The notes under the pieces were generated by a model. The model had not been told where the DNA came from. It did no database searches and saw only the letters and a program-made list of their open reading frames with translations. From a virus: DNA of 39,292 nucleotides. Made by a program: the position numbers and the translations under genes. Each line of letters opens with the position of its first letter. Position 1 is the stretch's first letter. This document shows, piece by piece, positions 404 to 27,818 of the stretch. The stretch lies in the IMG/VR virus record IMGVR_UViG_3300045988_171586; one strand, written 5' to 3'.

Positions 404-1735
404 ATGGGATTATTCAATAAAAAAGAATTGAAACGTATTGAAGAATTAGAAAAAGAAAATGCTGAATATCTTTCTAAAATTGAACAATTAGGCGCAAAAG
501 AGCTATTTGATATTCAAAATGAAATCAAAGAACTTCAACAAACTAAACTTGATGTAGAAAAAGATATTCAAGAAAAAAATGAAGAGTTATTGGATGTTAA
601 AAGAGATATTAATAGCGCAGTATTTGAGCTTAAAGCAAAAGAAGAAGAAATCAAGCGATTGGATTTAGATCTTGATGTAATGGACTTTGGCATTTATACA
701 CCTAAATACAATTGTATGAATTCTGAAGAATATGCCACAAAAATCAAAGAAAATAGAAACAAACAAAAAGAAATGATAAAAAATAAAACTGCTCTTAACT
801 ATTTTGACAGTTGGACTTTAGATGGAAGTTTAGCAAAAGGTCGAGCAATGAATAATGATAACATGAAAATGTATTTAAGAGCATTTAATAACGAATGTGA
901 TTCATTGATTTCAAAAGTAAAATTTAATAATTTTGATAGAATCGAAGAACGTATTAAAAAATGTGCTAAAGCCTTAGATAAGCTTAATCAAAGAACCAAA
1001 ATATCTGTTTCTTATAAATATTTAAAGCTAAAAATTGATGAACTTCATCTGGTACATGAATATCATTGCAAAAAACAAGAAGAAAAAGATGCAATGCGTG
1101 CTGCAAGAGAAGAAGAACGTGAACAAGCTAAATTACAAAAAGAAATAGAAGAAGCAAGAAAATCCATTACCAAAGAAAAGAAACATTATGAAAATGCTAG
1201 AGAAAAATTTGTTCTTCAATTAGAAAAATGTTCAACTAATAAAGAAAAAAGTGAAATACAATCAAAAATAAAAGAAATAGATGAAAAACTAACCGAAATA
1301 AAAAAGAATTTAGAAAATATAGATTATAGAGAAGCTAACAAAAGAGCTGGTTATGTATACGTTATTTCTAATATTGGTTCATTTGGTGAAGGAATATATA
1401 AAATAGGAATGACAAGAAGATTGGAACCAATGGATCGTGTAGATGAATTAGGTGATGCTTCTGTTCCATTTAAATTTGATGTTCATGCTATGATTTTCAG
1501 TGATGATGCTCCAACACTTGAAAATGCCCTACATAAAGCCTTTGATGATAGAAAAGTAAATATGATCAATGGGCGAAAAGAATTTTTTAGGGTTTCTTTA
1601 GAAGAAATAGAAAAAGTTGTAAAAGAAAATCATGAAAAATTAATAGAATTTAATGAAGTCCCTGATGCGGAACAATATAGAGAAACACTAAAAATAAAAG
1701 AATCATTAATAAAAGGGAAAAAAATAGATGAATAA
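404..1735 (+). CDS. Coiled-coil (DUF4041-like) N-terminus plus a C-terminal T5orf172/GIY-YIG-like domain, 443 aa.
   Basis: The start codon is 4 nt after the cI stop, and the RBS GGGAGGA lies inside the cI 3' end. About 330 aa are Lys/Glu-rich coiled coil. The C-terminus carries the GIY-YIG residues G-Y-V...Y-K-I-G...R-R...E (AGYVYVISNIGSFGEGIYKIGMTRR...LENALHKAF). Confidence 0.75.
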   Translation: MGLFNKKELKRIEELEKENAEYLSKIEQLGAKELFDIQNEIKELQQTKLDVEKDIQEKNEELLDVKRDINSAVFELKAKEEEIKRLDLDLDVMDFGIYTPKYNCMNSEEYATKIKENRNKQKEMIKNKTALNYFDSWTLDGSLAKGRAMNNDNMKMYLRAFNNECDSLISKVKFNNFDRIEERIKKCAKALDKLNQRTKISVSYKYLKLKIDELHLVHEYHCKKQEEKDAMRAAREEEREQAKLQKEIEEARKSITKEKKHYENAREKFVLQLEKCSTNKEKSEIQSKIKEIDEKLTEIKKNLENIDYREANKRAGYVYVISNIGSFGEGIYKIGMTRRLEPMDRVDELGDASVPFKFDVHAMIFSDDAPTLENALHKAFDDRKVNMINGRKEFFRVSLEEIEKVVKENHEKLIEFNEVPDAEQYRETLKIKESLIKGKKIDE

Positions 1736-2590: not shown

Positions 2591-3742
2591 ATGAAAGGAC
2601 GTGTTTTTATTATGGCTAGAAAAACAACATATAAGCGTAGACCTAATAATTCAGGAACAGTAGTTAAGTTATCAGGAAAGAGAAGAAAGCCCTACTGTGC
2701 AAGAATTTTAAGCAATGATAGAGATTTGATTACTGGTAGAAAGAAACAAGTAGCTATTGGCACTTTTGAAACTGAACTAGAAGCTTTAAATGCTCTATCT
2801 CTTTATCATATGACTTCTAATAGAGAAATAACAAAGAATGAAGCTAAAGAATTGAATAATGACTTATACAACAAAATACAATCCAAAAGAGATAACATAC
2901 CAACATTTAAAGAAATCTTTGATATTTTAAATGAAGAAGAGTTTTCATTGTTATCAAAATCATCAAAAGCTGGATATAATTCATGGATCAAACACTTTAA
3001 AAAAATATATAATAGAAAAATAAATGACATTGACTTGCAAGATTTACAATTTATTTTTGATAATGATAAATGCGGTACAGGAACCAAAAACCATATGAAA
3101 GTACTTTGTATTAAAATTTTCAAATACGCAGTTATTCATCAATATATTAATCGTGATGATGATTATACAGAATTTATTAATTGTGGTAAGAATGAAGAAA
3201 GTAAAAAGCATTATGCCTTCTCATATGATGAAATTAAGCGTTTGAGGGAAGAAAACACCGACATCGCTAAAATTATACTTATTTATATTTTTAGTGGACT
3301 ACGAGCAAATGAATTACTTAATATCGATAGAAAAGATATTCATATTGATGAAGTTTGTAATGATGATGGTGTTGAAAGAAAAGTATCTTATTTCTTTACT
3401 GGTTTAAAAACAGATGCAGGAAGAAACAGAGTTGTTCCAATCCATGATTTTATTAAACCTTTTGTAATTGAATTGCTGCTAAAGAAAAGAAAAAGAATTA
3501 TTGATAATACATATAGTATTTTTAAAGATGCTAGTTTCAATCCATATATGAAAGAATTAAACATGAATCATACCATGCATGATACAAGAGTTACATTTAC
3601 TACTTTATGTCAATTAAATAATGTTGATGTTTTTAGTAGAAAAAGAATTCTTGGCCACAAAATGAAAGATATTACTTTTGATACTTATACTGATACGATC
3701 ATCAATAAATTATTCGTAGAAATAAATAAAATCAAGGTGTGA
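2591..3742 (+). CDS. int: Tyrosine recombinase / phage integrase. An alternative start is at 2612.
   Basis: The N-terminus is an arm-binding-like basic region. The C-terminus carries H-x-x-R (HTMHDTR) and the catalytic-Tyr motif (LGHKMKDITFDTYTD). Confidence 0.9.
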   Translation: MKGRVFIMARKTTYKRRPNNSGTVVKLSGKRRKPYCARILSNDRDLITGRKKQVAIGTFETELEALNALSLYHMTSNREITKNEAKELNNDLYNKIQSKRDNIPTFKEIFDILNEEEFSLLSKSSKAGYNSWIKHFKKIYNRKINDIDLQDLQFIFDNDKCGTGTKNHMKVLCIKIFKYAVIHQYINRDDDYTEFINCGKNEESKKHYAFSYDEIKRLREENTDIAKIILIYIFSGLRANELLNIDRKDIHIDEVCNDDGVERKVSYFFTGLKTDAGRNRVVPIHDFIKPFVIELLLKKRKRIIDNTYSIFKDASFNPYMKELNMNHTMHDTRVTFTTLCQLNNVDVFSRKRILGHKMKDITFDTYTDTIINKLFVEINKIKV

Positions 3743-3976: not shown

Positions 3977-4013
3977 AAAAAACAACCCTAGCTAAATTGG
4001 CTAGGGTCTTTTC
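3977..4013. terminator. Bidirectional Rho-independent terminator between the lysogeny module and the endolysin gene.
   Basis: The stem CCCTAGC/GCTAGGG has loop TAAATTG. It is flanked by an A-run upstream and TCTTTT downstream, so a T-run follows on either strand. Confidence 0.6.
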
Positions 4014-4116: not shown

Positions 4117-4839
4117 TTAGACTTTTTTCAAGTAGTCTCCTGAAAGCCAACCTGAAGGAGTTCTAGCCCATCCATTCTTCCATTCGTAAACAGTTACTCT
4201 TGTTCCTCTTTCAAGACATCCATCTTTATCTTTATCATGTTTCTTTCCATCAGCAGTTAATTCATTATGAGTTTTTCTTCGATAATTAGTTCCAGAACCA
4301 GTTCTAACACTTAAATCACTAGCAGTAACTTCATATGTTCCTGTTGGTCTTTCACTTGATGAAGTCGATTGTGATGGTTTGGCTTGTGTAGGTGTTGAAG
4401 CAATAACTGCTTTTACGATTTCATCAAACGGAAAATTAGTTCCTGGGCAATTAGTAGAGCAAACATCTTTATGTTTTTGAACTTTAGAAATTCCATATTT
4501 TTTCTTTAAATAAGAAACTAATTCTCTACCCGCATTAATTTGTGTTTGACCCATTGTTTCTGTCATATAAGAACCTTCAAAACAAATTCCAATAGAATCA
4601 CTATTTGAACCTTTTGCATGTGATCCAACTGTATTTTCAGGTCTACCACGATAAATAGAGCCATCTTTTCTAACAAAGAAATGATAGCCAATACCTGCCC
4701 ATCCATTTGCTAAATGCCAACTATGGATATCATCTGCAGTACATGATTTTGATTCAGCATGATGTAAGATGATTCTATTTGTTGATTTTCTATTTTTTAA
4801 ATTTCCATTCCATTTATAATTTTTTTCAATAATATTCAT
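4117..4839 (-). CDS. Endolysin: N-acetylmuramoyl-L-alanine amidase (Amidase_2/PGRP-type) with a C-terminal SH3b-like cell-wall-binding domain.
   Basis: Amidase_2 motifs are IILHHAES and GIGYHFFVRKDGSIYRG...SIGICFEGSY. A Thr/Ser-rich linker follows. The C-terminus is SH3b-like (YEWKNGWARTPSGWLSGDYL). Confidence 0.9.
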   Translation of the reverse strand: MNIIEKNYKWNGNLKNRKSTNRIILHHAESKSCTADDIHSWHLANGWAGIGYHFFVRKDGSIYRGRPENTVGSHAKGSNSDSIGICFEGSYMTETMGQTQINAGRELVSYLKKKYGISKVQKHKDVCSTNCPGTNFPFDEIVKAVIASTPTQAKPSQSTSSSERPTGTYEVTASDLSVRTGSGTNYRRKTHNELTADGKKHDKDKDGCLERGTRVTVYEWKNGWARTPSGWLSGDYLKKV

Positions 4840-4854: not shown

Positions 4855-5349
4855 TTATTCTACAAAACTCCAATCATTTGATAACATGTCAGCTTGAGAA
4901 GCTAACCAACCTAATTGAATACCACTTGTCCCATGGAAAGCGATGGCTTTGTTTCCCATATCTACGTGATCTACATTAATAACTTCATCATTAGGTGTTT
5001 TAAAAGATACATTTGTAGCAAGTTCAATATACTGTTCTTTACCGTTCCAACCTTTGCGTTTTACTTTCATTCCACGTTTTAAATACTTTATAGCTTCATC
5101 AAACCCAAATGTAGCAACTCCACCTAACTCAGGACAATTATTCTTATCGGCAATCATCCATTCATTACTACAAATATTTAAAGCTGTATATTCAACTCTT
5201 TCTGTTTCTCTGATGTCTAATTCTTTGCCTTCCTTAGTGTGCATGATGATTGTTTCTTTTTCATTATCATAAAACCAATAACCACTCCAACTTGGAAGTT
5301 TCATTTTCATTCCTTGTTTCATTAATTCTAAAGCTTTTTTAAATTCCAT
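4855..5349 (-). CDS. Tandem-DUF2829 protein (two DUF2829/Tad2-like repeats), 164 aa.
   Basis: Two internal repeats each have the A-x-E-x-x-K-x-G-x-K...GW signature: ALELMKQGMKMKLPSWSGYW and AIKYLKRGMKVKRKGWNGKEQY. The C-terminus is WLASQADMLSNDW, with a first-repeat counterpart SNEWMIADK. Confidence 0.6.
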   Translation of the reverse strand: MEFKKALELMKQGMKMKLPSWSGYWFYDNEKETIIMHTKEGKELDIRETERVEYTALNICSNEWMIADKNNCPELGGVATFGFDEAIKYLKRGMKVKRKGWNGKEQYIELATNVSFKTPNDEVINVDHVDMGNKAIAFHGTSGIQLGWLASQADMLSNDWSFVE

Positions 5350-5393
5350 AATTATTCTCCTTTTTTCAAAATTAAAGAGTAGCCCTTTTTTGA

Positions 5394-5819
5394 CTACTCA
5401 TTCTCTTGATCTTCATCATTGTTTAACTGTTCTAACGCAGTTTTGATTTTATTTGGAATTGGAACACCTAGATTAGAAATGTTTTCTAATAGGCTAATTC
5501 CTTCATTCGCAATATAGAAATACGCTACAAGCGTTCTAAATACCCAAGTGCCACCATTTCCAAGCATACGATCTAATTCCACTCCTACAATAAGAACGGC
5601 TAGAATCATGCATTTTTTAATTAATCCTCTAAAGCCGACCTCACTATTAAGTGTTTTAATTACATAAGCATAAATTACACCTGTCACATAATCTAATACC
5701 ATGAATGTAATTAAAATCTTTAAAGCTAAATCCCAGCCACCAAATAGATACGTAAAAAAAGTAGCTAAGATAGCTACTGCTGTGTTGAATACTTTTTCCA
5801 TATTATTCATTTTCCTCAC
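5394..5819 (-). CDS. Holin of the TcdE/phage_holin_4_1 family (toxin secretion / phage lysis holin).
   Basis: It has three predicted transmembrane segments, the family-typical FMVLDYVTGVIYA motif, and an acidic C-terminus (NNDEDQENE). Confidence 0.85.
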   Translation of the reverse strand: MRKMNNMEKVFNTAVAILATFFTYLFGGWDLALKILITFMVLDYVTGVIYAYVIKTLNSEVGFRGLIKKCMILAVLIVGVELDRMLGNGGTWVFRTLVAYFYIANEGISLLENISNLGVPIPNKIKTALEQLNNDEDQENE

Positions 5820-20446: not shown

Positions 20447-20510
20447 AAATACCTCCAGTTAAAGTCCGTAAGACTATCCCATCTTTTAATGTCGTAAGTT
20501 TTTGGACAAT

Positions 20511-20535
20511 AAAAAAAGACAATTTCAAACTGTCT
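20511..20535 (-). terminator. Rho-independent terminator on the - strand, upstream of the scaffold gene.
   Basis: On the - strand, the stem AGACA/TGTCT (loop GTTTGAAAT) is followed by T7. Confidence 0.45.
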
Positions 20536-20692
20536 ATTTATTAGGTTTATTTTCTTTTATTTCTTCTACAACTTTCGCATCCAACAACTCTTTTATGCGA
20601 TTAGCATCATTGGCTTCAAATACATCACCAGCATACCTAACGACACCTGTATTTTTATCAATCATATTGCGAATAACTTTAAGTTTTGCCAT
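20534..20692 (-). CDS. Possible small ORF, 52 aa.
   Basis: It begins MAKLKVIRNMIDKNTGVVRYAGDVFEAND and ends ...KPNK. The RBS is weak and the stop codon lies inside the terminator stem. Confidence 0.3.
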   Translation of the reverse strand: MAKLKVIRNMIDKNTGVVRYAGDVFEANDANRIKELLDAKVVEEIKENKPNK

Positions 20693-20894
20693 ATTTCTTC
20701 TTGTTCCTTTCTAATGATTTGGTTTTAGATTTTGGTGGTGGTACATAACAGTCGTATTTTTCATATCTAACATGGCCACAAATCATACACATATATTGAA
20801 TTTTCTTAACCAAACAACTTCTCTTTTTATCAAAGTATTGTTCAGTACGATATTCAAACTCTTGGTGATGATGTAGTTTCAATCCTTGCGCCAT
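20679..20894 (-). CDS. Small Cys-rich (putative zinc-ribbon) protein, 71 aa.
   Basis: Cysteines occur in the pattern C-x8-C-x-C...C (CLVKKIQYMCMICGHVRYEKYDC). The C-terminus is basic. Confidence 0.45.
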   Translation of the reverse strand: MAQGLKLHHHQEFEYRTEQYFDKKRSCLVKKIQYMCMICGHVRYEKYDCYVPPPKSKTKSLERNKKKYGKT

Positions 20895-20910
20895 AAAATG
20901 CCTCCTTTCT

Positions 20911-21126
20911 TTAAAGTTCCTTTTTAAGTTTCTTCAAAAGATTCTTAATTCTAAAATTAGCTACACCATAAAATACTAAACTTAATAAACCGATTAATAT
21001 TTGAATTAATAATGGACTTAATACAATCCACCATGACCAAGTTACAAAGCCTAATATTTTTGCTATAACAAAAATAATTAATAATGCATTTAACATTGGC
21101 ATTCTCCTTTCTTTAAATTTGATCAA
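20911..21126 (-). CDS. Small membrane protein with two predicted transmembrane helices, 71 aa.
   Basis: Hydrophobic stretches are LNALLIIFVIAKILGFVTWSWWIVL and SPLLIQILIGLLSLVFYGV. The C-terminus is basic. Confidence 0.5.
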   Translation of the reverse strand: MIKFKERRMPMLNALLIIFVIAKILGFVTWSWWIVLSPLLIQILIGLLSLVFYGVANFRIKNLLKKLKKEL

Positions 21127-21138
21127 AAGAAAAACCGA

Positions 21139-21507
21139 CTATTTGTCGGCTTCATCTCTAAATGCATCTTCATAATTTAATTTTCCTGAATTTAAAACGA
21201 AATCCCTATCTCGCTTCATTTCCTCTAATTCTTCCTGAGTTTCGACATGCTCACCAACAATAATTTGGTCAACATTCTCATATGTTTGATAAAACATGTA
21301 ATTTACACCATCATTTAGCGTTGGGTACAATTCAGCTTCAATAGTTGCTAATGCCAAAGAAACTTGTAATGCAAACAAAGGGTCACCATCAAAAGAAGGA
21401 CCTAAATCATTTAAATGGAACATACCAACTGATTGATCATTGCTATTAAGATACGTCAATTTCAAATCATGTTTAAGACTAGCATATTCATTTGACATTT
21501 TTATCAC
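21139..21507 (-). CDS. Acidic hypothetical protein, 122 aa, immediately downstream of and overlapping the MuF-like gene. Candidate immunity or partner protein.
   Basis: It overlaps the 3' end of the 606-aa gene by 20 nt and is strongly acidic. Confidence 0.55.
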   Translation of the reverse strand: MIKMSNEYASLKHDLKLTYLNSNDQSVGMFHLNDLGPSFDGDPLFALQVSLALATIEAELYPTLNDGVNYMFYQTYENVDQIIVGEHVETQEELEEMKRDRDFVLNSGKLNYEDAFRDEADK

Positions 21508-23308
21508 CCTTTTCTTTCTTAATGATTTTGTTTTTCATGTTATTTAACGATTCTTTTGTATAATTTCTATATACCCAAGAGTTATTATCTTTTCCTGATA
21601 CAATGTTTATATTAATATTTGCATCTATAACTTCTTGTTTTCCTATAAGTTCATTATACACTGAACTACAACTAAAACACATATCTTTTTGAGATAGAAT
21701 ATAGATTTCTTGTTCTTTTAATTCACCTTTCAATACCTGATCATAAATATATTCAAAAAACTTGTATTCCGTATCATACTCTCTTGTATAATCATTTTCA
21801 TGACCTTTATACGGAACAAGTTTAGTATGCGGATGCAATCTTTTTGTTACTGGTGATGTTATTAATTTGCTTTTATCACCTTTATAATTGTTGAAAACAT
21901 CTTCATTTGTACTTGATATTCTACTAGATGCAATAAAAAAATCATCTCCAATTTTCATTGATGCAACATTTCCTTTGCTAGCTCTCGTTGTCATATATTT
22001 ATCTTTTGCAACGAATGCCTCTTTATCAAGCTCTAAAATAGTTTTTGCATCAACAGTTCCATAGTCAACTTTATAACGATTAACCGTCCTATAATTATAT
22101 TTTAGATCATTCCATTGTTCTACATTTTTGTATTTCAAATCTTGAAATTTAGATAGTGATGAAGGCATATTTTCTTTACCTAAGACATTAATATAACTTT
22201 GATACTGTTTCCTATCATTCGACAAATTCTTTGTCTTTTTCATAAAAGTATCAACAGTATCTACACCATGTGTTTCTTGTTGCCTTTTTAACCACTGATC
22301 ATAGTTCTCTTTAACGTCAACAACTTCATCTCTACCAGTAATAGGATTACGTTGTCTTTTCTTCATGGCATCAGTAACACCCTCAATATATGGAATCATA
22401 TGAGAACGGCAATTAGGATGAAGTGGTGGAACATTAACACCAACTTGTGCTTTTGATATTTCAACAATACTTCTATCATGTTGTTGACATATCTTTGATG
22501 TTCTACTGTCATGAACTGCAATAAACATTTGTTTGTCGATACCAGCATCTTCAAAAGCTAACTGATCAGCAAACGCTGACATTGCTGCACTTTCAGTTTG
22601 AATAAGCCTTCTTGCTTGATAAGCACCTACAGCAAACTTATTCATGATAGTATCAGCCATTTCCTTTTCGGTTTTATTGGTTAATACACCTAGCATCATT
22701 TCATCTTTCAATGAATCAGCTAATTCATTTGTATTGTTCCAAATTCTATCAGAATAGTTTTTGCCACTCCATTTAGATTTTAGTGTCTTATCAATCAAAT
22801 TAGAATCTAAATTATCAAACTGATAAGCTATATTCATTCCTTGTTGTATGTTATAAACATCTTTGTAATAAGCATTAAAAGCACTGTTTATATAGCAATC
22901 AGTGCTCTTATCTTTTTCAATGTTATAAACTTCTTTCATCAGATTATCTAACTGACTTTGCATATTTTCAAGTCGTTTTATTCTATATTGATAAGCTGGA
23001 GCATCAAGTCTTTTTAATAATTCCTCTCTTTGCTGATTAGAGATGTTATTTTTCAACAACCTTTTTAATTCATTATAATCATGATCATTTACCGTTGTTG
23101 AAAGTAATCTTTTCGCTTCTATTTCTGATAATCCATAATTACTTTTGTATTTTTCGAATATTCCTTCTATTTGATTTTGAGTATAAACACATGCCTTGCT
23201 GTATACGCTAGAAATATATTCACTGGATACTTGAGCATCATCTAATATATCAGCAAGTTTTTCTTCTTGACGTTTCTTCCAATATTTCTCATTTTTCATA
23301 TCAGCCAA
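21488..23308 (-). CDS. Head morphogenesis protein (SPP1 gp7 / Mu F-like) with a ~290-aa C-terminal extension of unknown function.
   Basis: The MuF domain reads KFAVGAYQARRLIQTESAAMSAFADQLAFEDAGIDKQMFIAVHDSRTSKICQQHDRSIV...PPLHPNCRSHMIPY. The extension follows, and the gene sits directly downstream of the portal gene. Confidence 0.8.
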   Translation of the reverse strand: MADMKNEKYWKKRQEEKLADILDDAQVSSEYISSVYSKACVYTQNQIEGIFEKYKSNYGLSEIEAKRLLSTTVNDHDYNELKRLLKNNISNQQREELLKRLDAPAYQYRIKRLENMQSQLDNLMKEVYNIEKDKSTDCYINSAFNAYYKDVYNIQQGMNIAYQFDNLDSNLIDKTLKSKWSGKNYSDRIWNNTNELADSLKDEMMLGVLTNKTEKEMADTIMNKFAVGAYQARRLIQTESAAMSAFADQLAFEDAGIDKQMFIAVHDSRTSKICQQHDRSIVEISKAQVGVNVPPLHPNCRSHMIPYIEGVTDAMKKRQRNPITGRDEVVDVKENYDQWLKRQQETHGVDTVDTFMKKTKNLSNDRKQYQSYINVLGKENMPSSLSKFQDLKYKNVEQWNDLKYNYRTVNRYKVDYGTVDAKTILELDKEAFVAKDKYMTTRASKGNVASMKIGDDFFIASSRISSTNEDVFNNYKGDKSKLITSPVTKRLHPHTKLVPYKGHENDYTREYDTEYKFFEYIYDQVLKGELKEQEIYILSQKDMCFSCSSVYNELIGKQEVIDANININIVSGKDNNSWVYRNYTKESLNNMKNKIIKKEKGDKNVK

Positions 23309-27324: not shown

Positions 27325-27495
27325 CTATAAAATGTCCCTATCGACATAATAAACTAAAAATTTTTTATCATACTTATAGAAAGCTATATCTATTCTATCG
27401 ATATCACGCTCGGAAAAACTCTCATATACAAATAAGGCTGGTGTTTCAAAGAAAGGCACAAAGTCTTTTGCTCTAAACATTTCTTCCGCTGTCAT
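27325..27495 (-). CDS. Possible small ORF, 56 aa.
   Basis: Its start overlaps the MazG-like stop as ATGA. The hand translation reads MTAEEMFRAKDFVPFFETPALFVYESFSERDIDRIDIAFYKYDKKFLVYYVDRDIL. Confidence 0.3.
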   Translation of the reverse strand: MTAEEMFRAKDFVPFFETPALFVYESFSERDIDRIDIAFYKYDKKFLVYYVDRDIL

Positions 27496-27818
27496 AACTT
27501 TTTCAACCTTTCTTGTTCTCGCTTTGCTTTTTCTACTTTAAAAGCAAACACTTCATCATCACTGATATTAAACATCACTTTTAGTTGATATAGCATGATT
27601 TCCACGTCGGCTATTTCTTCAATTAAATTTGCATAATGTTTATCATTTGGATAACGAAGAAATTTATTAATTGCTTGAATAAGTTCAGCACATTCTTCCA
27701 TCGTTTGTCTGCATTGCGGTTCTTTGCCATATTTTTCAAGCGATTGTCTAAATATCCTTTTTGTTTCCGTTACTTTATCTAGAAATTCATCAACATTAAA
27801 TTCTTCTATTTTATTCAT
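27492..27818 (-). CDS. MazG-like nucleotide pyrophosphohydrolase, 108 aa.
   Basis: The EExxE motif is MEECAELIQAI and the downstream ExxD motif is EEIADVEIMLYQL, as in all-alpha NTP pyrophosphatases. Confidence 0.7.
   Translation of the reverse strand: MNKIEEFNVDEFLDKVTETKRIFRQSLEKYGKEPQCRQTMEECAELIQAINKFLRYPNDKHYANLIEEIADVEIMLYQLKVMFNISDDEVFAFKVEKAKREQERLKKL

What the first reader, a model, noticed from the sequence alone, without database searches (positions are those of the whole stretch)
4855..5349. Tandem-duplicated DUF2829 (Tad2-like) protein embedded between holin and endolysin
The 164-aa protein is two DUF2829-like repeats. Each has the A-x-E-x-x-K-x-G-x-K...GW signature and a W...DW C-terminal motif. 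Single-domain DUF2829 proteins have been described as Tad2 anti-Thoeris sponges that sequester a cyclic ADPR-derived signal. An intramolecular duplication would give a pseudo-dimer or pseudo-tetramer. Its placement inside the late lysis cassette, rather than among early genes, is unusual for an anti-defence gene. It may instead indicate a lysis-timing or other late function.
Basis: partly seen in the sequence, partly recalled or inferred. Interest (0 to 1): 0.65.

Follow-up and report, generated by a model that had tools for sequence, protein, structure and literature searches.

The report
Double Tad2 immune-signal sponge in lysis cassette
This prophage gene fuses two different versions of a known phage "sponge" domain (Tad2) that soaks up bacterial immune alarm molecules, and it sits in a swappable slot between the holin and endolysin genes where sister phages carry another anti-immune sponge, so it is most likely anti-defence cargo and not a lysis gene.

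Summary
ORF 4855-5349 (minus strand, 164 aa) lies between a Phage_holin_4_1 holin and an Amidase_2 endolysin and contains two Tad2/DUF2829-fold domains.

- **C-terminal half:** a canonical Tad2 domain that keeps the SPO1/HgmTad2 gcADPR-pocket residues.
- **N-terminal half:** a compact, divergent "mini-Tad2". On its own it falls below the Pfam threshold, but profile-profile comparison (E 8e-10) and a predicted fold show it is homologous.
- **Origin:** an old fusion of two diverged subfamilies, not a recent duplication.
- **Abundance:** the architecture is common in gut Bacillota prophages, with at least 4,000 protein clusters.

The gene is not tied to lysis. Close homologues sit mostly in the head-morphogenesis module, sometimes among early genes.

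In phages with 97-100% identical holins, the holin-endolysin slot holds one of four things: this gene, DUF6275 plus this gene, a PF21825 "Sequestin" sponge (anti-type I Thoeris), or DUF6275 plus Sequestin. In more distant holin relatives the holin is followed directly by a lysin in about 37 of 38 cases.

Best reading: late-expressed anti-defence cargo, a Tad2-family sponge for TIR/Thoeris-type signals. The lysis-timing idea is not supported. I rate it a new variant of a known kind, of moderate interest. Ligand binding and oligomer state are untested.

The parts
4855..5349 (-). CDS of the 164-aa two-domain Tad2-like protein (stop codon TAA at 4855-4857)
   Evidence: ORF listing. PF11195 80.4 bits. 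phrog_1048 covers residues 1-164. AlphaFold2 pLDDT 88.2, pTM 0.71. Only Tad2 structures are significant in the PDB.
5140..5349 (-). N-terminal compact 'mini-Tad2' domain (about residues 1-70). Order of elements: helix 1, strand 1, W21-S-G23 loop, strands 2-4, helix 52-59, strand 5. It lacks the insertion after strand 2.
   Evidence: hhalign against a Tad2/C-half profile: 96.5%, E 8e-10. AF2 pLDDT 95. Best PDB matches are SPO1 Tad2, TM 0.65-0.71, E 6e-3 to 2e-2. Invariant across the family: W21, G23, W25, T55, W64; nearly invariant: R47, N58.
5110..5139 (-). Conserved inter-domain linker (about residues 71-80, N-C-P-E-L-G-G-V-A-T)
   Evidence: N71, G76 and G77 invariant, P73 and L75 nearly invariant in 102 homologues. 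Boundaries are my estimate from the model's secondary structure.
4858..5109 (-). C-terminal canonical Tad2 domain (about residues 81-164) with the gcADPR-pocket motifs G-W101-N102-G103 and W148-L-A-S151-Q-A-D154
   Evidence: PF11195 69.2 bits alone. phmmer hits to HgmTad2/AcrIIA7 8kbi, SPO1 Tad2 8sme, ModTad2 9eib and SptTad2 8wjd. Pocket residues taken from bioRxiv 10.1101/2023.05.01.538930 and 10.1101/2023.11.15.567273. Invariance across the family.
5357..5361 (-). Shine-Dalgarno AGGAG, 7 nt upstream of the ATG
   Evidence: Read from the sequence. The same cassette start is seen in L111 and L115.
5377..5399 (-). Terminator-like hairpin overlapping the holin stop codon, followed by a T-rich tail. 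It marks the left boundary of the cargo slot and belongs to the holin clade, not to the cargo.
   Evidence: Consensus scan: 8 pairs, 4 GC. A hairpin in the same place, with a different sequence, occurs in many holin relatives whatever follows.
5394..5819 (-). Holin (Phage_holin_4_1), upstream neighbour
   Evidence: PF05105 141.8 bits.
4117..4839 (-). Endolysin (N-acetylmuramoyl-L-alanine amidase, Amidase_2). Its Shine-Dalgarno sequence directly follows the stop codon of the Tad2-like gene.
   Evidence: PF01510 78.3 bits. phrog_35436 amidase. Junction sequence.
3984..4008 (.). Strong bidirectional terminator ending the late operon. The phage attachment region lies between it and the integrase gene (2591-3742, + strand).
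   Evidence: 10-pair stem. Integrase ORF. In the integrated form the amidase is followed by host PTS_IIB, RecG and PlsX-type (FA_synthesis) genes.

Best explanation
The gene encodes a cytoplasmic Tad2-family sponge for bacterial immune signals, built as a covalent hetero-tandem. A compact N-type Tad2 domain is linked by a conserved roughly 10-residue linker to a canonical C-type Tad2 domain.

The gene is accessory anti-defence cargo. It has been inserted into a variable slot of the late operon, after a hairpin at the end of the holin gene and directly before the endolysin gene, and is presumably transcribed with the late genes.

**Shown here**
- Both domains have the Tad2 fold.
- The C domain keeps the ligand-contacting residues of solved Tad2-gcADPR complexes.
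- The gene is mobile between phage modules.
- The same slot holds a different anti-Thoeris sponge in sister phages.

**Inferred**
- Two chains pair into a pseudo-tetramer equivalent to the Tad2 homotetramer.
- The pockets, either C:C' or hybrid N:C, sequester a TIR-derived ADP-ribose signal. 3'cADPR (1''-3' gcADPR) of type I Thoeris is the most likely ligand.
- This prevents activation of the effector and so protects phage production.
- Late co-expression fits immune systems whose TIR sensors are triggered by capsid proteins.
For: **Family and fold**
- PF11195, E 1.4e-22.
- PDB sequence hits are only Tad2/AcrIIA7 entries.
- The AF2 model (pLDDT 88, pTM 0.71) matches only Tad2 structures: 24 chains with E < 4e-3, then nothing better than E 0.1.
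- The N domain alone also matches SPO1 Tad2 and is homologous by hhalign, E 8e-10.

**Pocket residues**
- SPO1 Tad2 residues W25, N26, W73, S76 and D79 correspond to W101, N102, W148, S151 and D154 here. The equivalents in HgmTad2 are W21, N22, G23, W87, S90 and D93.
- Among 102 homologues, W101, N102, G103, Q152 and D154 are invariant; W148 and S151 are nearly so.
- The only change is SPO1 T78 / HgmTad2 T92 to Ala.

**Cargo behaviour**
- Of 70 IMG/VR loci with 54-94% identical homologues, 30 are in the head module, 19 in the lysis cassette and 21 elsewhere.
- A three-repeat relative lies among early recombination genes.
- A 68%-identical relative lies upstream of the holin.
- The Dorea phage copy lies between two unannotated genes after the large terminase, which I read as the portal/minor-capsid and scaffold positions. 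The R. gnavus phage copy lies between holin and endolysin.

**Anti-defence hotspot**
- With holins 97-100% identical, the slot holds this gene (L111, L113), DUF6275 plus this gene (L115), a 146-aa PF21825 protein (L112, L116), or DUF6275 plus the PF21825 protein (L114).
- PF21825 is Sequestin, a sponge shown to bind 3'cADPR and block type I Thoeris (bioRxiv 10.1101/2025.07.12.664507).
- In 38 more distant holin relatives the next gene is a peptidoglycan hydrolase in about 37. This sums per-family member counts, assuming one catalytic domain per protein.

**Precedents in the literature**
- Tad2 is often fused to other sponge domains (Acb4, Sequestin), giving one protein activity against two systems.
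- A staphylococcal Thoeris system is activated by the phage major head protein, a late product (PMC12578639).
Against: - No binding, oligomerisation or phage assay was possible. The ligand is inferred from conserved residues only.
- The Tad2 family is promiscuous: 3'cADPR, His-ADPR, N7-cADPR, cGG/cGAMP and cUMP/cCMP are all bound by one member or another. The exact signal is therefore uncertain.
- The N domain lacks three of the canonical pocket residues: the N26 equivalent is Ser/Gly, there is no W73 equivalent, and the D79 equivalent is Asn. A hybrid pocket would not be canonical.
- Some distant tandem relatives lose the C-domain motifs but keep the N domain (P0159, P0163, P0179, P0187). In those, the conserved function may reside in the N domain.
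- I could not check whether the host (apparently Faecalibacillus or related gut Bacillota) carries Thoeris.
- The authors of the Tad2 paper expected sponges to be made early. Late expression here is inferred from position only.
Confidence: 0.72

Rival explanations
1. Dual-specificity sponge. The N-type mini-Tad2 domain is a separate sponge subfamily with its own, still unknown ligand, and the fusion blocks two immune signals with one protein, as Acb4-Tad2 and Sequestin-Tad2 fusions do.
For: - N-type domains exist as stand-alone 66-68-aa phage proteins that pass PF11195.
- The N domain is the most conserved part across 19 clusters at 50% identity: 8 of the 12 invariant columns.
- It stays conserved where the C-domain motifs decay.
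- Its invariant W21, G23, T55 and near-invariant N58 align with pocket positions of Tad2.
- Sponge-sponge fusions with dual activity are documented.
- Tad2 proteins can hold two different ligands at separate sites.
Against: - No ligand is known for any N-type protein.
- None of the N-type sequence motifs I searched for occurs in the supplementary tables held for the 84-protein sponge screen (Table S1 was cut when stored).
- A stand-alone N:N pocket would lack the Trp and Asp that make most contacts in solved complexes.
- The N domain could simply be a structural partner.
Confidence: 0.3
2. Lysis-accessory protein. The gene regulates holin or endolysin timing, for example by sequestering a nucleotide that gates lysis.
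For: - It lies between holin and endolysin here, in R. gnavus phage phiRg507T2_3, and in at least 11 of 70 surveyed loci.
- It is tightly coupled to the endolysin start.
Against: - The same protein family sits more often in head modules and also in early modules.
- The slot is empty in about 37 of 38 more distant holin relatives.
- The slot is filled by an unrelated anti-Thoeris sponge in near-identical phages.
- I saw no hydrophobic stretch or signal peptide in the sequence (by eye).
- No lysis family matched in PHROGs.
Confidence: 0.04
3. Anti-CRISPR of the AcrIIA7 type acting on Cas9.
For: - The best PDB sequence hits include entries named AcrIIA7, which is the same protein as HgmTad2.
- One phage homologue is annotated 'anti-CRISPR protein' (H40).
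Against: - Li et al. could not reproduce Cas9 inhibition by AcrIIA7/HgmTad2 or other Tad2 homologues, and showed sponge activity instead.
- Yirmiya et al. argue that DUF2829 proteins are anti-Thoeris rather than anti-CRISPR.
Confidence: 0.03
4. Degenerate scaffold model. Only the two C domains of a dimer form one canonical pocket, and the N domains merely replace the other two protomers of the tetramer. This would halve the number of pockets per tetramer-equivalent (one instead of two) while guaranteeing assembly.
For: - Canonical residues are complete only in the C domain.
- The N domain lacks the insertion (helix 2) that forms the V-shaped dimer in SPO1 Tad2.
Against: - The very strong conservation of N-domain loop and helix positions equivalent to pocket elements argues for more than a scaffold.
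- This is a sub-variant of the best explanation, not an alternative function.
Confidence: 0.2

Closest known systems
Tad2 (Thoeris anti-defence 2; SPO1 gp34.65; Pfam PF11195/DUF2829), including HgmTad2/AcrIIA7, SptTad2 and ModTad2
   Same: - Same fold for both domains.
- The C domain is 30-35% identical to solved Tad2s and keeps the WNG loop and the W-x-x-S-Q-x-D helix that contact gcADPR.
- Phage- or prophage-encoded.
   Different: - Known Tad2s are single-domain proteins of about 90-105 aa that form homotetramers. This one is a 164-aa hetero-tandem of a compact N-type and a canonical C-type domain, so any tetramer-like assembly would come from two chains and be asymmetric.
- It lacks the long insertion that binds cGG/cGAMP in HgmTad2.
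- It is encoded in a late operon.
Sponge-sponge fusion proteins (Acb4-Tad2 of Pasteurella phage Pm86; Tad2-Sequestin; Sequestin-Acb4), bioRxiv 10.1101/2025.07.12.664507
   Same: Two sponge-type domains in one polypeptide. A modular network of fusions is also seen here: a shared ~62-aa N-terminal domain fused to Sequestin, the same domain fused to Tad2, DUF6275 fused to Tad2, and PGDYG-like regions fused to the tandem Tad2.
   Different: Here both domains belong to the same superfamily. They could therefore co-assemble into one tetramer-like body rather than form two independent oligomers.
Anti-defence loci with alternating cargo (anti-CRISPR loci; the anti-Gabija locus of SPbeta-like phages, Yirmiya et al.)
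   Same: One fixed genomic position in closely related phages holds different anti-defence genes: tandem Tad2, Sequestin, with or without DUF6275.
   Different: The hotspot lies inside the late lysis cassette, and a second one lies between the minor-capsid and scaffold genes. Neither is in an early region.
Single-domain DUF2829 genes between the minor head and scaffold genes (for example Staphylococcus phage SpaA1 ORF7, PMC3398947; C. perfringens phage CP51 gp6)
   Same: The same head-module slot is used by many homologues of this protein. The CP51 and phiCT19406A proteins are stand-alone versions of the N-type domain.
   Different: They have a single domain. The window phage carries its copy in the lysis slot, and holds four unrelated small ORFs in the head slot.

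Membership tests
Tad2 / PF11195 (DUF2829) | Significant match to the PF11195 profile above the gathering score | tested here: met
   Whole protein 80.4 bits against 25. C half alone 69.2 bits. N half alone 17.9 bits, below the cut-off, but linked to the family through stand-alone homologues (27.8 and 31.1 bits) and hhalign E 8e-10.
Tad2 / PF11195 (DUF2829) | Tad2 fold: N-terminal helix, five-stranded antiparallel sheet, short helix before the last strand | tested here: met
   Predicted, not solved. Full model pLDDT 88.2; only Tad2 chains are significant in the PDB, target-normalised TM 0.52-0.69. N domain alone pLDDT 95, TM 0.65-0.71 to SPO1 Tad2, E 6e-3 to 2e-2.
Tad2 / PF11195 (DUF2829) | gcADPR pocket residues (SPO1 W25, N26, W73, S76, D79; HgmTad2 W21, N22, G23, W87, S90, D93) | tested here: met
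   Met for the C domain: W101, N102, G103, W148, S151, D154, invariant or nearly so in 102 homologues. T78/T92 is Ala here. Not met for the N domain: S22 (Gly in most relatives) in place of Asn, no Trp73 equivalent, N58 in place of Asp.
Tad2 / PF11195 (DUF2829) | Homotetramer with two ligand pockets at interfaces between protomers | not testable with these tools
   Only monomer prediction was available and model coordinates could not be inspected. pTM 0.71 suggests a defined packing of the two domains.
Tad2 / PF11195 (DUF2829) | Binds a TIR-derived signal and inhibits Thoeris | not testable with these tools
   Needs biochemistry and phage assays. Indirect support: a Sequestin (anti-type I Thoeris) gene occupies the same slot in sister phages.
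Sponge-sponge fusion proteins | Two recognisable sponge domains in one polypeptide, each also found as a stand-alone protein | tested here: met
   Stand-alone N type: CP51 gp6 and phiCT19406A_36. Stand-alone C type: for example P0156, 89 aa, 75% identical.
Dedicated lysis-accessory proteins (antiholins, lysis regulators) | Conserved synteny with holin and endolysin across relatives | tested here: not met
   Only 19 of 70 homologue loci are in lysis cassettes. About 37 of 38 more distant holin relatives have no gene in the slot. The cargo alternates in near-identical phages.
Dedicated lysis-accessory proteins (antiholins, lysis regulators) | Membrane segment or signal sequence, or similarity to a known lysis family | tested here: not met
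   No lysis-category PHROG and no Pfam lysis family matched. No hydrophobic stretch is visible in the sequence; this was by inspection only, with no transmembrane predictor run.
AcrIIA7-type anti-CRISPR | Inhibition of Cas9 | not testable with these tools
   The activity was not reproduced for the founding protein.

The most novel reading that the evidence does not exclude
In gut Bacillota siphophages, the holin-endolysin junction and the minor-capsid-scaffold junction are late-expressed anti-defence hotspots in which sponge cassettes are exchanged. The hetero-tandem Tad2 forms asymmetric N:C pockets, or carries two specificities. Its recurrent partners are themselves undescribed immune-signal binders or modifiers:
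- the N-type mini-Tad2 domain;
- DUF6275 (PF19791);
- the ~62-aa domain shared by Sequestin and Tad2 fusions;
- the 98-aa protein resembling a nucleoside 2-deoxyribosyltransferase.
Probability: 0.35. Interest if true: 0.7.

Novelty: new variant of a known kind. Interest (0 to 1): 0.5.

Why it matters
Tad2 sponges are a well-studied way for phages to disarm signalling immunity, but they have been described as small homo-oligomers assumed to act early.

This case shows a very abundant architecture, with thousands of protein clusters in human-gut prophages. Two diverged Tad2 domains are fused, and the gene is carried in late operons.

The slot it occupies alternates with a Sequestin sponge in otherwise near-identical phages. 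That gives three things:
- a genomic marker for finding new anti-defence genes in gut phages;
- several concrete candidate families that can be tested directly;
- a natural system for asking whether covalent hetero-tandems create asymmetric or dual-specificity pockets.

It also fits the recent finding that capsid proteins trigger Thoeris, which makes late sponge expression sensible rather than odd.

Tried and rejected
- **Megablast** of the lysis region against GenBank phages found nothing. The protein-level search was needed.
- **Recent duplication** is rejected. BLASTP of the halves aligns only 21 residues, and no DNA repeat lies in the domain register.
- **Compositional anomaly** is rejected. 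GC is 0.30-0.34 across holin, cargo and lysin.
- **Own promoter.** No convincing sigma-70-like site lies upstream of the gene, and the region has fewer promoter-like hits than shuffles.
- **The hairpin after the holin as part of the cargo** is rejected. It occurs in holin relatives with and without cargo.
- **Fold search against AFDB50** was not available.
- **BFVD** gave only single-domain matches, maximum query TM 0.43.
- **Domain interface.** I could not read model coordinates, so I cannot say which Tad2 interface the two domains mimic. No multimer prediction was possible.
It was repeated without them.
- **Search for an already-tested tandem Tad2.** None of the N-type motifs I tried occurs in the supplementary tables held for Hadary et al.. 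Table S1 was cut when stored.
- **Literature on DUF6275/PF19791:** none in the library.
- **PADLOC** gives no hit for the protein or its two frequent neighbours.
- **Incomplete survey.** My crude gene caller missed the target in 10 of the 80 viral loci, so they were left out of the context counts.
- **Host Thoeris content** was not examined.
Full report
**1. What is in the sequence**

The ORF at 4855..5349 on the minus strand encodes 164 aa. An AGGAG ribosome-binding site lies 7 nt before the ATG.

- Upstream, after a 44-nt gap, is a Phage_holin_4_1 holin (5394..5819).
- Downstream, 15 nt after the stop codon, is an Amidase_2 endolysin (4117..4839).
- A strong bidirectional terminator (3984-4008) ends the operon.
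- An integrase gene (2591..3742, + strand) converges on it.

The identical protein occurs on 95 contigs. There the amidase is followed by host genes (PTS_IIB, RecG, a PlsX-type FA_synthesis gene). The window is therefore most likely a circularly permuted genome of a temperate phage of gut Bacillota. A 91%-identical homologue carries an NCBI label from Faecalibacillus intestinalis.

**2. Two domains, but not a recent duplication**

- Pfam PF11195 (Tad2-like) matches at E 1.4e-22 in two stretches.
- The C half (residues 81-164) is canonical: 69.2 bits on its own.
- Its PDB sequence hits are only HgmTad2/AcrIIA7, SPO1 Tad2, ModTad2 and SptTad2.
- The N half alone scores 17.9 bits, below the cut-off, and matches only over residues 1-28.

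Three independent results show that the N half is still a Tad2 domain.

- Stand-alone 66-68-aa homologues of it, in C. perfringens phage CP51 and C. tetani phage phiCT19406A, pass PF11195 over their full length.
- hhalign of an N-half profile against a C-half-plus-solved-Tad2 profile gives 96.5% probability, E 8e-10, over 69 columns.
- An AF2 model of the N half (pLDDT 95) has SPO1 Tad2 as its four best PDB matches. TM is 0.65-0.71, although Foldseek E is only 6e-3 to 2e-2. The next hit has TM 0.21.

The full-length model has pLDDT 88.2 and pTM 0.71. It matches 24 Tad2 chains at E < 4e-3 and nothing else better than E 0.1.

BLASTP aligns the two halves over only 21 residues, 9 of them identical, and there is no DNA repeat in the domain register. 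Each half has closer stand-alone relatives than the other half: 53% for N and 75% for C (P0156). This is an old fusion of two diverged subfamilies.

**3. Residues**

Published pocket residues are W25, N26, W73, S76, T78 and D79 for SPO1 Tad2. For HgmTad2 they are W21, N22, G23, W87, S90, T92 and D93.

| Position (SPO1) | C domain | N domain |
|---|---|---|
| W25 | W101 | W21 |
| N26 | N102 | S22 (Gly in most relatives) |
| next Gly (HgmTad2 G23) | G103 | G23 |
| W73 | W148 | no equivalent |
| S76 | S151 | T55 |
| T78 | A153 | L57 (my manual alignment) |
| D79 | D154 | N58 |

The C-domain residues other than A153 are invariant or nearly invariant in 102 homologues.

Across 19 clusters at 50% identity, the N domain supplies 8 of the 12 invariant columns. 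These include W21, G23, W25, T55 and W64; N58 is nearly invariant. In the N-domain-only alignment R47 is also nearly invariant. The N domain is therefore under strong constraint at positions equivalent to pocket elements, but with different chemistry.

**4. How common the architecture is**

- Against one representative per 50%-identity cluster, 2,322 proteins match at E <= 1e-3.
- At least about 25 of those clusters align over the full two-domain length.
- A profile of distant tandem members finds at least 4,083 clusters at 90% identity.
- PHROGs already has a family covering the whole length, phrog_1048.

Variants include:
- three-repeat proteins (P0088 and P0089, 234 aa);
- a C+C tandem (P0242);
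- a 481-aa multi-repeat protein (P0207);
- fusions to other N-terminal domains.

Hosts are gut Bacillota: Eubacterium ramulus, Ruminococcus bromii, Lachnospiraceae and Oscillospiraceae.

**5. Genomic context**

*Survey anchored on the protein.* Of 70 IMG/VR loci with 54-94% identical full-length homologues:

| Context | Loci |
|---|---|
| Head-morphogenesis module (portal, Phage_min_cap2 or Mu_F, scaffold within two genes) | 30 |
| Lysis cassette | 19 (11 demonstrably holin > gene > endolysin) |
| Elsewhere | 21 |

The loci are not independent lineages, so these are descriptive counts.

- A three-repeat relative lies among early recombination genes (ERF, YqaJ).
- A 68% relative lies just upstream of the holin.
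- In isolated phages, the Dorea phage DO134P1 copy lies between two unannotated genes after the large terminase, which I read as the portal/minor-capsid and scaffold positions.
- The R. gnavus phage phiRg507T2_3 copy lies between holin and endolysin.

*Survey anchored on the holin.* This was more telling. Among phages whose holin is 97-100% identical to the window's, the slot between holin and amidase holds:

| Slot content | Loci |
|---|---|
| This gene | L111, L113 |
| DUF6275 + this gene | L115 |
| A 146-aa protein with a PF21825 domain | L112, L116 |
| DUF6275 + the PF21825 protein | L114 |

In L111 the next gene is an acetyltransferase-like ORF, and no amidase is seen in the flank.

PF21825 is Sequestin, recently shown to sequester 3'cADPR and block type I Thoeris. 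The cassette boundaries are sharp: after the hairpin and T-tract at the holin stop codon, and at the endolysin's Shine-Dalgarno sequence.

In 38 more distant holin relatives (35-77% identity) the next gene carries a peptidoglycan-hydrolase domain in about 37. The family counts are Amidase_3 16, Phage_lysozyme 8, Amidase_2 6, GH25 5, M23 1 and CHAP 1, summed on the assumption of one catalytic domain per protein. The slot is normally empty and, in this lineage, is an exchange point for anti-defence cargo.

**6. Mechanism**

*Shown:*
- Membership of the Tad2 fold for both domains.
- An intact canonical pocket motif in the C domain.
- Mobility of the gene between phage modules.
- Allelic alternation with a known anti-Thoeris sponge.

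*Inferred:*
- Two chains form a pseudo-tetramer like the Tad2 homotetramer, whose pockets lie between protomers of different dimers.
- The pockets sequester a TIR-made ADP-ribose signal, most likely 3'cADPR.
- The gene is expressed with the late operon. I found no promoter of its own.

Late expression is reasonable because a staphylococcal Thoeris system is activated by the major head protein (PMC12578639). The original authors, however, expected early expression.

Ligand identity is uncertain because Tad2 proteins bind many signals.

**7. Rivals**

- *Dual-specificity sponge, with the N type as a separate sponge subfamily.* Plausible, about 0.3. It overlaps with the best explanation.
- *One-pocket scaffold model.* A sub-variant of the best explanation.
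- *Lysis-timing role.* Contradicted by the context surveys and by the lack of any lysis-family signal (about 0.04).
- *Anti-CRISPR activity.* Unlikely, given the failed reproduction for AcrIIA7.

**8. Novelty**

The family, the sponge mechanism and sponge-sponge fusions are all known. Databases already label these proteins as DUF2829 domain-containing.

I found three things undescribed in the searchable literature:
- the N-type/C-type hetero-tandem itself; the N-type motifs I searched for are absent from the supplementary tables held for the 84-protein screen;
- its predominance in late modules;
- the Tad2/Sequestin exchange slot inside a lysis cassette.

I rate it a new variant of a known kind, with interest about 0.5.

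Noticed in passing
L112:3474-3914, L116:3477-3917, L114:3812-4252, L122:3450-3890: In sister phages the holin-endolysin slot holds a 146-aa protein with a C-terminal PF21825 (crAss001_48, 'Sequestin' sponge) domain (64 bits). Its ~62-aa N-terminal domain has no Pfam match. That same N-terminal domain is fused to a canonical Tad2 domain in P0192 and P0186 (49% identity over 105 aligned residues, strongest over the first ~62; E 3e-33). By fusion logic it is a candidate new sponge or anti-defence domain.
   Followed up: partly
L081:2732-2998, L114:3542-3808 and 26 other loci; fusion protein P0112: DUF6275 (PF19791, about 88 aa) lies immediately upstream of the tandem Tad2 gene in 27 of 70 loci. 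It also precedes the Sequestin protein in L114, and P0112 carries both PF19791 and PF11195 in the database's precomputed Pfam annotation. No paper in the library mentions DUF6275 or PF19791. It is a candidate anti-defence partner.
   Followed up: partly
L071:3491-3787 and 29 other loci: A 98-aa protein matching part of phrog_355 ('nucleoside 2-deoxyribosyltransferase', E 6e-14) lies immediately downstream of the tandem Tad2 gene in 30 of 70 loci. It has no Pfam or PADLOC hit. It may be another member of the same cargo cassette, which is absent from this window.
   Followed up: no
window 5377-5399 (-); same position in L111-L125, L127, L130-L131, L133-L135, L138-L140, L142-L146, L158: A terminator-like hairpin overlaps or directly follows the holin stop codon and is followed by a T-tract. 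In many relatives of this holin it keeps its position while its sequence differs (for example GAGTAGTC...GGCTACTC against GAGAGC...GCTCTC). It is absent where the holin and lysin genes overlap. It may be an attenuator or RNA-stability element separating the holin from the downstream genes.
   Followed up: partly
window 404-1735 (+): A 443-aa protein with DUF4041 and T5orf172 domains matches the PADLOC model for the PD-Lambda-1 defence system (E 2e-161). It lies between a Peptidase_S24 repressor fragment (71-400) and the integrase, so the prophage carries a defence gene in its lysogeny module as well as an anti-defence gene in its lysis module. The following 227-aa ORF (1728-2411) has no match.
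   Followed up: partly
window 21488-23308 (-): The 606-aa minor head protein combines a Phage_Mu_F domain with a C-terminal toxin-deaminase domain (BURPS668_1122 family, E 1.3e-10). In related loci the equivalent protein carries an ADP-ribosyltransferase domain instead (L042:1269-2663). These look like MuF-type head proteins with variable toxin ends.
   Followed up: no
window 20447-21507 (-): The head-module slot between the MuF protein and the DUF4355 scaffold protein, where many relatives carry the tandem Tad2 gene, here holds four small unannotated ORFs (122, 71, 71 and 52 aa; one looks membrane-spanning). None was characterised.
   Followed up: no
L012:1-3929: In one relative the tandem Tad2 gene follows a 3,937-aa polyvalent protein (ART-PolyVal, PBECR5, Peptidase_M23) and precedes the holin.
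   Followed up: no
window 27492-27818 (-): A small MazG-like nucleotide pyrophosphohydrolase (E 8e-5) lies in the replication region. Such phage enzymes might also act on nucleotide pools or signals.
   Followed up: no
P0207 (481 aa), P0088 and P0089 (234 aa), P0242 (164 aa): Other multi-repeat DUF2829 architectures exist: a 481-aa protein with four matched stretches in the search and what look like five or six repeats by eye, three-repeat proteins, and a tandem of two canonical C-type domains.
   Followed up: no
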